64,000 nucleotides of DNA from the human T2T-CHM13v2.0 reference genome, Homo sapiens (GCF_009914755.1 NC_060933.1), one strand, 5' to 3'; positions 1 through 62,500 are shown, numbered from the stretch's first letter. The notes: generated by a model from the letters alone, not told the origin. Program-made: numbers and translations.

Positions 1-2010
1 CTATTCGGTTTAATTCCATTCCATTCCATTCCATTCCATTCCATTCTATTCCATTCCATTGCAATCGAGTTGAATCCATTGCATTCCATTCCATTCCATT
101 CCATTCCATTGCATTCCGGAAGATTCCATTCCATTGCATTCCATTCCATTCCATTCCATTCCATTCCATTCCATTCCATTCCATTCCATTGTACTCGGGT
201 TGATTCCATTCCATTGCATTGCATTCCATTCCATTCCATTCCATTCCATTCCGTTCCATTCCATTCCATTACATTCGGATTGATTCTTTTCAACTCCCTT
301 ACTCTCCATTACATTGCATTCCATTCGGGTAGTTTCCATTCCATTCCATTCCATTCCTCTCCATTCCATTGCATCGGGTTGATTCCATTCCATTCCATTC
401 CATTCCATTCCATTCCATTCCATTCCATTCCGGATGATTCCATTCCATTGCATTCCGTTCCATTACATTCCCCTGCACTCGCGTTGATTCCATTCCATTC
501 CATTCCATTCCATTCAATTCCATTCCATTACAATTCGTTCCATTCCATTCTATTCCGTACCATTCGATTCCATTCCATACCATTCCATTCCATTCCATTC
601 CGTTCCATTCCGTTCCATTCTGTTCCATTCCATTCCATTCCATTCTATTCGGGTTAATTCCATTCCATTCCATTCCATTCCATTCCATTCTGTTCCATTC
701 CATTGCATTCGAGTTGAATCCATTGCATTTCATTCCATTCCATTCCATTCCGGAAGATTCCATTCCATTGCATTCCATTCCATTCCATTCCCCTGCACTC
801 GCGTTGATTCCATTCCATTCCATTCCATTCCATTCCATCCATTCCGTTCCGTTCCGTTCCATTCCATTCCATTCCATTCCATTCCATTCCGTTCCGTTCC
901 ATTCCATTCCATTCCATTCTATTCGGGTTAATTCCATTCCATTCCATTCGATTGCAATCAAGTTGATTCCATTCCATTCCATTCCATTCCATTCCATTCC
1001 ATTCCATTCCATTCCTTTCCATTCCCTTCCGGATGTTCCCATTCCATTGCATTCCATTCCATTCCATTCCCCTCTACTCGGGTTGATTCCATTGCATTCC
1101 ATTCCAATCCATGCCATTCCACTCGTGTTGATTCCATTCTTTCCATTCCATTCAAGTTGAATCCATTCCATTGCATTCCATTCCATTCGATTCCATTCGA
1201 TTGCACTCGGGTTGATTCCATTCCATTGCATTCCATTCCATTCCATTCCATTCCATTCCATTCCATTCCGTTCCATTCCATTGCATTACATTCGGATTGA
1301 TTCTATTCAATTCCCTTACAATCCATTACATTCCATTCCATTCGGGTAGTTTCCATTCCATTCCATTCCATTCCTCTCCATTCCATTGCACTCGGGTTGA
1401 TTCCATTCCATTGCATTCCATTCCATTCCATTCAATTCCATTCCGTTCCATTCCATTCCATTACATTCGGATTGATTCTATTCAACTCCCTTACTCTCCA
1501 TTACATTCCATTCCATTCGGGTTGTTCCATTCCATTCCATTCCATTCCACTCCATTCCATTGCACTCGGGTTTATTCCATTCCATTCCATTCCATTCCAT
1601 TCCATTCCATTCCATTCCATTCCTTTCCGTTCCATTCCATTCCATTCCATTCCATTCCAATCCATTCCATTCCGTTCCGTTCCGTTCCATTCCATTCCAT
1701 TCCATTCTATTCGGGTTAATTCCATTCCATTCCATTCGATTGCAATCGAGTTGATTCCATTCCATTCCATTCCATTCCATTCCATTCCATTCCATTCCAT
1801 TCCTTTCCATTCCATTACGGATGATTCCATTCCATTGCATTCCATTCCATTCCATTCCCCTGTACTCGGTTTGATTCCATTCCATTGCATTCCAATCCAT
1901 GCCCTTCCACTCATGTTGATTCCATTCTTTCCATTCCATTCAAGTTGAATCCATTCCATTGCATTCCATTCCATTCCATTCCCCTGCAGTCGGGTTGATT
2001 CCATTCCATT
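1..2010 (+). repeat. Family-B subarray segment in CATTC orientation
   Basis: Reverse complements of family-B words: CAACTCCCTTACTCTCC (~291, ~1483), CGGGTAGTTTCC (~326, ~1344), TTCAAGTTGAATCC (~1151, ~1939), TTACAATTCGTTC (~528). Confidence 0.8.
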
Positions 2011-59561: not shown

Positions 59562-62500
59562 ATCAACACGAGTGCAGTGTAATGGAATCGAATGGAATGG
59601 AATGGAATGTAATGGATTCAACACGAATGGAATGGAAAGGAATGGAATAAACCCGCGTGGAATGGCATGGAATGGAGTGGAATGGAATGGAATGGAATGG
59701 AATGGAATCAACCCGAGTGCAATGTAATGGAATCGAATGGAATGGAATGGAATGGAATGGATTCAACCCGAATGGAATGGAAAGGAATGGAATAATCCCG
59801 AGTGGAATGGCATGAAGTGGAGTGGAATGGAATGGAATGGAATGGAATGGAATGGTACGGAATAGAATGGAATGGAACGAAATGGAATGGAATGGAATGG
59901 AATGGAATGGAATGGAATGGAATGGAATGAACCCGTGTGCAATGGAATGGAATCGAATGGAATGGAATGGATTGGAATGGATTCAACTCGAATAGAATGG
60001 AAAGGAATGGAATGAACACGAGTGGAATGGCATGGAATGGAATGGAATGGAATGGAATGGAATGGAATGGTACGGAATAGAATGGAAAGGAACGAAATGG
60101 AATGGAATGAAATGGAATGGAATGGAATGGAATGGAATGGAATGGAATCAACCCGAGTGCAGGGGAATGGAATGGAATTGAAGGCAATGGAATGGAATCA
60201 TCCGGAATTGAATGGAATGGAATGGAATCAACTCGATTGCAATGGAATGGAATGGAATGGAATGGAATGGAATGGAATGGAATGGAATGGAATGGAATGG
60301 AATTAACCCGAATAGAATGGAATGGAATGGAATGGAAGTAAATGGAATGGAAGGTAATGAACCCGAGTGCAGGGGAATGGAATGGAATGGAATGCAATGA
60401 AATGGAGTCATCCGGAATGGAACGGAAAGGAATGGAATGGAACCAACCCGTGTGCAATGGAATTGAAAGGAATGGAATGGAATGGAATGGAATGGAATGG
60501 AATGGAATGGAATGGAATGGAATGGATTCAACCCGAATGGAATGGAAAGGAAGGGAATCAACCCAAGTGGAATGGCATGGAATGGAATGGATTGGAATGG
60601 AATGGAATGGTACCGAATGGAATGGAATGGAATGGTACCGAATAGAATGGAATGGAACGAAATGGAACGGAATGGAATGGAATGGAATGGAATGGAGTGA
60701 ACACGTGTGCAATGGATTGGAATGGAATGGAATGGAATGGAATGGAATGGAATGGGTTCGACTCGAATGGAACGGAATGTAATGAAATCAACCCGAGTGG
60801 AATGGCATGGAATGGAATGGAATGGAATGGAATGGAATGGAAACAACACGAGTGCAATGTAATGGAATCGAATGGAATGGAATGCAATGGATTCAACCCG
60901 AATGGAATGGAAACGAATGGAATAAAACCGAGTGGAATGGCATGGAATGGAGTCTAATGGAATGGAATGGAATGGAATGGTATGGAATAGAATGGAATGG
61001 AACGAAATGGAATGGAATGGAATGGAATGAAATGAACCCGTGTGCAATGGAATGGAATGGAATGGAATGGAATGGAATGGATTCAACTCGAATGGAATGG
61101 AAAGGAATGGAATCAACCCGAGTGGAATGGCATGGAATGGAATGGAATGGAATGGAATTAACCCTAATAGAATGGAATGGAATGGAATGGAATGGAATGG
61201 AATGGAAGGAAATGGAATGAAATGGAATGGAATGGAATGGAATGGAATGGAATGGTACGGAATAGAATGGAATGGAACGAAATGGAATGGAATGGAATGG
61301 AATGGGATGGAATGGAATGGAATGGAATCAACCCGAGTGCAGGGGAATGGAATGGAATGGAAGGCAATGGAATGACATCATTCGGAATTGAATGGAATGG
61401 AATGGAATGGAATGGAATCAACGCGAGTGCAGGGGAATGAAATGGAATGGAATGCAATGGAATGGAATCTTCCGGAATGGAATGGAATGGAATGGAATAG
61501 AATGGAATGGAATGGAATGGAATGGAATCAACCCGAGTACAGGGGAATGGAATGGAATGTAATGTAATGGAATGGAATCATCCGTAATGGAATGGAAAGC
61601 AATGGAATGGAATGGAATGGAATGGAATGGAATGGAATCAACTGGATTGCAATCGAATGGAATGGAATGGAATTAACCCGAATAGAATGGAATGGAATGG
61701 AACGGAACGGAACGGAATGGAATGGAATGGAATGGAACGGAACGGAATAGAATGGAATGGAATGGAATGGAATGGAATGGAATCAACGCGAGTGCAGGGG
61801 AATGGAATGGAATGGAATGCAGTGGAATGGAATCTTCCGGAATGGAATGGAATGGAATGCAATGGATTCAACTCGATTGCAATGGAATGGAATAGAATGG
61901 AATGGAATGGAATGGAATGGAATTAACCCGAATAAAATGGAATGGAATGGAATGGAACGGAACGGAACGGAACGGAACGGAATGGAATGGAATGGAATGG
62001 AATGGAATGGTATGGAATGGAATGGAATGGTACGGAATAGAATGGAATGGAAAGAATTGGAATGGAATGGAATCGAATGGAATGGAATGGAATGGAATGG
62101 AATCAACCCGAGTGCAGGGGAATGTAATGGAACGCAATGTAATGGAATGGAATCATCCGGAATGGAATGGAATGGAATGGAATGGAATGGAATGGAATGG
62201 AACCAACTCGATTGTGATGGAATGGAATGGAATGGAATGGAATGGAATGGAATGGAATTAACCCGAATACAACGGAATGGAATGGAATGGAACGGAATGG
62301 AGTGGAATGGAATGGAATCAACCCGAGTGCAGGGGAATGGAATGGAATGGAATGCAATGGAACGGAATCATCCGGAATGGAATGGAATGGAATGGAATGC
62401 AAAGCAATGGAATCAACTCGATTGCAATGGAATGGAATGGAATGGAAAGGAATACATTGGAATCAACCCGAGTGGAATGGAATGGAAAGGACTGGAATGG

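What the first reader, a model, noticed from the sequence alone, without database searches (positions are those of the whole stretch)
114..61845. Perfect heat-shock elements are confined to one subarray lineage
Seen: pure GGAAT gives only direct nGAAn repeats, but the word GGAATCTTCCGGAAT forms a perfect GAAnnTTCnnGAA element. I count about 21 copies: 2 within 1-760, 10 in 22.9-36.8 kb, 2-3 per complete HOR unit and 2 in the 61.4-kb patch. I saw none between ~760 and ~22900, where only the one-mismatch TCATCCGG form occurs. Two variants change only spacer bases (GAAtcTTCctGAA 25405; GAAtaTTCcgGAA 28707), while one at ~39638 breaks the core. Established: HSF1 binds HSat3 to nucleate nuclear stress bodies and drive SatIII RNA. 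Inference: these words may be the HSF1 landing pads, making the array regulatory-heterogeneous.
Basis: partly seen in the sequence, partly recalled or inferred. Interest (0 to 1): 0.7.

Follow-up and report, generated by a model that had tools for sequence, protein, structure and literature searches.

The report
Chromosome 9 satellite's heat-shock word
A one-letter variant of the chromosome 9 satellite repeat spells a textbook heat-shock-factor binding site about 13,000 times in the genome, apparently almost all in this one array and missing from blocks around one much-copied inversion junction; it is likely a main docking site for the factor that seeds nuclear stress bodies, which sharpens an already published picture.

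Summary
Observation confirmed: 21 perfect three-unit HSEs, none from 761 to 22,923. All 21 lie in context closer to one HSat3 lineage (A), defined with the sites masked. The framing needs reversing. Lineage A is most of the chr9 array (82 of 100 sampled bins, 0.63 HSE/kb), and the HSE-free lineage B is the minority (14 bins, 0.04/kb). B flanks an inversion junction found as 78 identical copies on chr9. The word occurs 12,968 times genome-wide, and sampling puts nearly all on chr9. Yq12 carries three unrelated perfect-HSE words (about 14,100 copies). 29 kb from other HSat3 arrays held none. Chr9 and Y are the two known primary stress-body sites. Uneven HSF1 motif density tracked by ChIP-seq is already reported (Franklin et al.). 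Binding to this word was not tested here.

The parts
114..126 (-). perfect 3-unit HSE, main word, in the inverted (C-rich) arm
748..760 (-). perfect HSE, main word
1..2000 (-). lineage A block, inverted relative to 22.8-40.4 kb
2001..22800 (.). mostly lineage B block with no perfect HSE (CpG 20.3/kb versus about 26 in A); small A-like patch at 4,001-4,800; undetermined at 20,001-21,600
16746..16775 (+). inversion junction (C-rich to G-rich switch); this 30-mer has 78 exact copies, all on chr9 at 52.3-76.4 Mb
22801..40400 (+). lineage A block: 10 perfect HSEs interleaved with 22 GAAnnATCnnGAA one-mismatch sites
22924..22936 (+). perfect HSE, main word
23688..23700 (+). perfect HSE, main word
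25402..25414 (+). perfect HSE, second-spacer variant
27835..27847 (+). perfect HSE, main word
28704..28716 (+). perfect HSE, first-spacer variant; GGAATATTCC is shared with the HSP70 HSE probe of Jolly 2002
30152..30164 (+). perfect HSE, main word
32894..32906 (+). perfect HSE, main word
34122..34134 (+). perfect HSE, main word
35900..35912 (+). perfect HSE, main word
36793..36805 (+). perfect HSE, main word
39635..39647 (+). core-broken copy (C at the diagnostic A/T position)
40588..47693 (+). higher-order unit 1 (7,106 bp), mosaic of B and A, homologous to the segment at about 17.5-23.4 kb; HSEs at 45,118, 45,976 and 46,849
47694..53861 (+). higher-order unit 2 (6,168 bp); HSEs at 52,179 and 53,042
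53862..60179 (+). higher-order unit 3 (6,318 bp); HSEs at 58,502 and 59,355
60180..64000 (+). partial unit 4 with an A-type patch; HSEs at 61,465 and 61,830

Best explanation
The word GAATCTTCCGGAA is a perfect three-unit heat-shock element carried by the dominant lineage of the chromosome 9 HSat3 array; it likely arose by an A-to-T change in a CATCC pentamer, likely spread passively by tandem duplication, and is likely a preferred HSF1 docking site that helps make 9q12 a primary stress-body site. Shown: the match to the HSE pattern; 12,968 copies; its tie to lineage A; its near absence from lineage B; B around most sampled copies of one inversion junction; unrelated perfect HSE words in the Yq12 repeat; none in 29 kb of other HSat3. 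Inferred: HSF1 trimers would bind one site per about 1.6 kb of lineage A, with the more numerous one-mismatch CATCC sites adding weaker binding. The HSE-free stretches (22 kb in this window) would be an older lineage copied along with the junction rather than a regulated domain, and would show dips in HSF1 occupancy.
For: Pattern and positions. Lineage test with HSE sites masked and external references: 19 of 21 in A bins; 104 HSEs in 82 A bins versus 1 in 14 B bins. Array-wide: 107 perfect HSEs in 20 x 10 kb, 19 of 20 samples positive. The word extrapolates to 11,868 on chr9 (bootstrap 8,970-14,628) against 12,968 genome-wide. A fully listed rare-variant subset has 90 of 92 matches in the chr9 array, and the other 2 are different words. 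Only 13 copies of the word were listed on chr1-8. Yq12 has about 4,790 + 9,314 copies of three other perfect words. Nine samples (29 kb) of chr10, 14, 15, 17, 20 and 22 HSat3 have 0, against 15.5 expected at the chr9 rate. Chr9 and Y are the primary HSF1 targets. HSF1 ChIP-seq follows motif density in HSat3. Heat-induced transcripts map across the whole chr9 array. Derived state: T-form flanks are less diverged than A-form flanks (0.010 versus 0.025), and the T form shares one of the two main upstream contexts of the A form.
Against: No binding data were analysed here. The core is not more conserved than flanks (p=0.72). The one-mismatch word is commoner genome-wide (21,931) and sits in the same lineage, so the two are hard to separate. 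In Drosophila PB-seq, 33% of sites have a relaxed middle pentamer with only modest preference at the position that differs here. HSF1 binds pHuR98, whose nGAAn arrangement the authors call non-canonical, at about 4-fold more protein than an HSE probe. One-mismatch sites are also denser on Y (2.3-2.5/kb) and chr9 (1.2/kb) than in other HSat3 (0-0.75/kb), so they predict the chr9 and Y ranking too. Sites are isolated three-unit elements with no four-unit arrays. HT1080 cells form stress bodies on Y and not chr9, so sequence alone does not decide. About 44,000 control-level matches and tens of thousands of real perfect matches lie elsewhere.
Confidence: 0.62

Rival explanations
1. HSF1 is recruited about equally by perfect and one-mismatch sites, so the T allele is a lineage marker with little extra effect and total near-HSE density is what matters.
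For: A relaxed middle pentamer is common in HSF sites (Drosophila). The CATCC word has 21,931 copies at 0.84/kb in A versus 0.36/kb in B. One-mismatch density also ranks Y and chr9 above other HSat3.
Against: The chr1 HSat2-like sample has 2.0 one-mismatch sites per kb and no perfect site (one 3-kb sample), yet chr1 is not named as a primary site; satellite II of 16qh gave no EMSA shift. Perfect sites separate chr9 and Y from the other arrays cleanly in my samples.
Confidence: 0.25
2. HSF1 loads on the array through plain nGAAn repeats, unusual DNA structure, chromatin state or condensate formation, and these words are incidental.
For: Jolly 2002 found binding only to slower-migrating pHuR98 forms and proposed secondary structure. 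No sign of selection on the core. Cell-line dependence of chr9 versus Y.
Against: GGAATG density is the same in A and B (96-99/kb) and pentamers are abundant in all HSat3 samples, yet ChIP-seq is reported to follow motif density. Neither the T nor the A context folds better than shuffles as RNA or DNA (z 0.2-1.4; one context each).
Confidence: 0.1
3. The T allele was amplified by selection for HSF1 recruitment, and the HSE-free blocks are functional spacers or boundaries at inversion junctions.
For: Chr9 and Y hold unrelated perfect words at similar totals. Together they account for about 38% of the 76,189 perfect matches. The first spacer varies more than the core (20/272 versus 9/1088).
Against: Core and flank vary equally (p=0.72). 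The same spacer is just as variable in the CATCC family (41/506), so this is not HSE-specific. The 78 junctions are identical copies, so their shared lineage-B flanks count as one event. B also occurs away from listed junctions, for example at 49.2 Mb.
Confidence: 0.1

Closest known systems
HSF1 motif-dense sub-regions of HSat3 (Franklin et al., bioRxiv 10.1101/2024.10.22.616524; section 5 and passages read, figures not held, supplements closed)
   Same: Reports HSF1 motifs enriched in sub-regions of HSat3, and heat-shock HSF1 ChIP-seq enriched where motif density is high.
   Different: The text read does not name the word, count it, tie it to a lineage or to inversion junctions, or say which region Fig. 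2b shows. Here the HSE-bearing state is the majority of chr9.
Perfect HSEs in the Yq12 3,564-bp SatIII unit (Penin et al. 2021, PMC7889540; passages read, supplements unreadable)
   Same: Perfect HSEs interspersed in a SatIII array that is a primary HSF1 target.
   Different: The Y words are unrelated to the chr9 word. I found three per unit under the strict pattern; they report four. They leave HSE number at 9q12 versus Yq12 open; my estimates are about 14,800 versus at least 14,100.
Putative HSEs at 9q12 (review PMC9032817, passages; called an unpublished observation) and HSF1 binding to pHuR98 (Jolly 2002, PMC2173303; section 8 and passages)
   Same: Same locus, same factor.
   Different: The review says the number of sites is unknown. 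Jolly et al. judged the nGAAn arrangement in their 158-bp clone non-canonical. A canonical element is in fact present about every 1.9 kb on average.
The more than 200 inversion breakpoints reported for the chr9 HSat3B5 and beta-satellite arrays (Altemose et al., bioRxiv 10.1101/2021.07.12.452052; passages)
   Same: The window's strand switch is one such breakpoint.
   Different: The passages read do not mention that 78 share one exact junction or lie in an HSE-poor lineage; supplements were not seen and may say so.

Membership tests
Canonical heat-shock element | three contiguous alternating nGAAn pentamers | tested here: met
   21 exact matches; consensus layout as given
Canonical heat-shock element | A at the first position of each pentamer (AGAAN consensus) | tested here: not met
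   All three pentamers of the main word begin with G. The consensus has A, but the HSP70 probe also has G at its first unit, and only 5 of 1,309 Drosophila sites match the consensus exactly.
Canonical heat-shock element | extended arrays of four or more units for cooperative binding | tested here: not met
   0 four-unit matches in the window; a feature of strong promoters, not required for a minimal HSE (recalled)
Canonical heat-shock element | bound by HSF1 trimer in vitro and after heat shock in cells | not testable with these tools
   No ChIP or EMSA data available; indirect support
Canonical heat-shock element | drives heat-inducible transcription | not testable with these tools
   Array-wide induction reported, not assigned to this word
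Element under purifying selection | core varies less than neighbouring non-core bases | tested here: not met
   9/1088 versus 32/3128, p=0.72; distinct alleles 7/24 versus 26/69, p=0.62; 136 sites, not independent, so modest power
chr9 HSat3 (HSat3B5) array | GGAAT pentamer satellite within the 27.6-Mb chr9 array, with strand inversions | tested here: met
   composition, strand switch, location given with the finding and, array description; the B5 label comes, not from my own k-mer classification

The most novel reading that the evidence does not exclude
Primary nuclear stress bodies form on chr9 and Y because these two arrays independently evolved canonical HSE words, together about 38% of all perfect three-unit matches in the genome. 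On chr9 a single derived letter supplies them. The array is punctuated by HSF1-poor deserts riding on one inversion junction copied at least 78 times, so the T:A allele ratio and lineage-B content of a person's 9q12 would set stress-body strength.
Probability: 0.3. Interest if true: 0.75.

Novelty: new member of a known kind. Interest (0 to 1): 0.48.

Why it matters
What HSF1 reads in satellite III has stayed vague since 2002 ('HSE-like sequences', number unknown). A named 13-base word, its one-letter sister allele and naturally HSE-free blocks with the same pentamer density give a built-in controlled test on existing ChIP-seq reads. They also offer a sequence reason why chr9 and Y, and not the other large HSat3 array on chr15, are the primary stress-body sites. 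The general point, that HSF1 motifs are unevenly spread in HSat3 and binding follows them, is already reported.

Tried and rejected
The family-resolved test shows no excess conservation; it left out the diagnostic A/T column, one polymorphic flank column and 10 ambiguous sites, 2 of which have C at the diagnostic position. Hairpin or RNA-structure explanation for the T allele: no signal (a script attempt timed out). Gapped HSEs made by plain repeats: only 2, both overlapping perfect sites. Two rare-variant searches gave the same 4 matches, all chr9, too few to use. A third gave 182, of which the 100 listed are all chr9. Rows dropped from the 'other HSat3' count: L022, L028 and L029 (not GGAAT satellite), L040 (52 pentamers in 3 kb) and L030 (HSat2-like, reported apart); all five had 0 perfect HSEs. 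The bin tally sums to 106 of the 107 HSEs. The six extra junctions (6 of 78, about every 13th in the list) are not independent events. No HSF1 weight matrix was available, so no FIMO-type scan was run. Papers not held. A search on CpG methylation and HSF1 binding listed nothing relevant by title. PMC13705371, PMC12771815 and PMC10813801 (passages) add nothing on the word.

Full report
Observation. The window is GGAAT satellite, C-rich on + up to about 16,750 and G-rich after. It holds 21 perfect three-unit HSEs: 17 exact GAATCTTCCGGAA on +, 2 on - (114, 748) and 2 spacer variants (25,402; 28,704). None lies between 761 and 22,923, and there is no four-unit element. Order 1-3 Markov models give 0.4-0.6 sites, and a pentamer shuffle gives 10.9, so the element amounts to one variant pentamer, CTTCC, between GGAAT units. 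The 22-kb gap has P=0.003 under uniform placement.

Anatomy. A 40-mer dot plot and HSE-masked 20-mer sets split the window into two lineages. With references taken only from loci outside the window, A covers 1-2,000 and 22,801-40,400. B covers most of 2,001-22,800. The region after 40.4 kb is a mosaic: three full units of 7,106, 6,168 and 6,318 bp and a partial one, copied from the B/A boundary segment at about 17.5-23.4 kb. Of 160 bins, 69 are A, 75 B and 16 undetermined. 19 of 21 HSEs fall in A bins, 1 in an undetermined bin and 1 in a B bin; all 21 have more A than B k-mers within 300 bp. The one-mismatch TCATCCGG form occurs 51 times, only 8 of them in the empty stretch. It is therefore interleaved with the perfect form, not its replacement.

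The array as a whole. The word occurs 12,968 times in the genome (control 117), with 13 listed on chr1-8. The CATCC sister word occurs 21,931 times. Twenty 10-kb samples from 49.2 to 76.0 Mb of chr9 hold 107 perfect HSEs, and 19 of 20 are positive. Scaled to 27.6 Mb (size), that is 14,766 HSEs (bootstrap 11,592-17,802) and 11,868 copies of the word (8,970-14,628). A rare-variant subset listed in full has 90 of 92 matches in the chr9 array; the two others are different words. A satellite-context pattern gave 12,930 matches, with 6 related words listed on chr5. In 100 two-kb bins, A has 82 bins and 104 HSEs, B has 14 bins and 1, and 4 other bins have 1. So HSE-bearing sequence is the rule on chr9, and this window (3.3 per 10 kb) is below average because it contains a B block.

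The empty stretch. The window's junction 30-mer has 78 exact copies, all on chr9 at 52.3-76.4 Mb. The one HSE-free 10-kb sample (L013) contains such a junction and is lineage B. At 6 of the 78 junctions, taken at about every 13th row, 11 of 12 two-kb arms are lineage B with no HSE. One arm is mixed, with 2 HSEs. In total that is 2 against 12.8 expected. Because the junctions are identical, this most likely reflects one inversion in lineage B copied with its flanks (inference), not 78 independent events. B also occurs at 49.2 Mb, far from any listed junction. It has fewer CpGs (20.6 versus 26.4 per kb), which fits an older lineage (inference).

Other arrays. Contig C24 (chrY by length, recalled) has a repeat of about 3.55 kb with three unrelated perfect words: about 4,790 copies of one (4,836 less 46 listed elsewhere) and 9,314 of the other two (9,321 less 7). 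Nine GGAAT-rich samples from chr10, 14, 15, 17, 20 and 22 (29 kb) have none, against 15.5 expected at the chr9 rate. One HSat2-like chr1 sample has none. Four samples that were not, or mostly not, satellite were dropped. The genome has 76,189 perfect matches against 43,994 for the reversed-pattern control, so chr9 plus Y would hold about 38% (the chr9 part is extrapolated). These are the two arrays described as primary HSF1 targets.

Origin and selection. Among 136 T-family sites in the window and 20 loci, eight core positions vary in 9 of 1,088 cells and flanks in 32 of 3,128 (p=0.72). The first spacer varies more (20 of 272), but equally so in the A family (41 of 506). There is no sign of purifying selection, though copies are not independent and power is modest. 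T-family flanks are less diverged than A-family flanks (0.010 versus 0.025), and T shares one of A's two main upstream contexts. That suggests T is derived (inference).

Mechanism. Most likely (0.62), heat-activated HSF1 trimers dock preferentially on the perfect word, one per about 1.6 kb in lineage A, with weaker help from the CATCC sites. This density helps nucleate stress bodies and SatIII transcription across the array, with dips over B blocks. The sequence facts are shown; binding and function are inferred. In favour: HSF1 ChIP-seq follows motif density in HSat3, transcripts map across the whole chr9 array, and one variant shares ten bases with the HSP70 HSE probe. Against: a relaxed middle pentamer makes up 33% of Drosophila HSF sites, with only modest preference at the base that differs here. 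One-mismatch density also ranks Y and chr9 first among HSat3 samples. HSF1 binds pHuR98, which its authors call non-canonical. HT1080 cells ignore 9q12. Folding gives no structural difference between the alleles.

What is known. Franklin et al. (section 5 and passages) already report HSF1 motifs in sub-regions of HSat3, with ChIP-seq following them; their figures and supplements could not be seen and may show more. Penin et al. (passages; supplements unreadable) report four perfect HSEs per Y unit. A review (passages) cites putative 9q12 HSEs as unpublished and the site number as unknown; another speaks of HSE-like sequences (passages). Altemose et al. (passages) report over 200 inversion breakpoints. 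In ten searches and the passages read, I did not see the word, its count, the link between HSE-free blocks and the copied junction, or the chr9/Y convergence stated. I did not search the literal word, and most subscription papers are not held.

Verdict. The feature is real and correctly described. It is a minimal canonical HSE by pattern, and binding is untested. The concept is known; the word-level map and the junction link appear to be added detail that makes an old question cheap to test. New member of a known kind, interest 0.48.

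Noticed in passing
window 16,746-16,775: The inversion junction is one of 78 exact copies on chr9 (31 forward, 47 reverse), so many of the array's breakpoints look like duplicates of one event.
   Followed up: partly
window 40,588-64,000: The 6-7 kb higher-order repeat is a tandem amplification of the segment spanning the B/A boundary on the G-rich side of the junction (about 17.5-23.4 kb).
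   Followed up: partly
L021:1234, 1514, 2535; L023:2813, 3083: The Yq12 repeat unit has three perfect HSE words unrelated to the chr9 word. They are mostly on one strand and account for most of the genome's strand excess of perfect HSEs (13,119 of 14,055).
   Followed up: yes
all main-word sites, e.g. window 22,924-22,936: The second spacer is a CpG. Deamination there leaves the HSE core intact (182 copies of one such variant). Whether methylation affects HSF1 binding is open.
   Followed up: partly
main word, e.g. window 22,929-22,936: The T allele creates the 8-bp palindrome TTCCGGAA and, on the other strand, CCGGAAG. From recall only, these resemble short-spaced STAT and ETS-type sites, so other factors could read the same allele.
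   Followed up: no
G000:C9 about 54.3-55.8 Mb versus 63.1-66.4 Mb (listing): Runs of the same rare variants recur with similar spacing, suggesting megabase-scale duplications inside the array.
   Followed up: no
G000:C5:49.72-49.91 Mb: Six related perfect words in satellite context on chr5: a sparse set, different from the chr9 main word.
   Followed up: no
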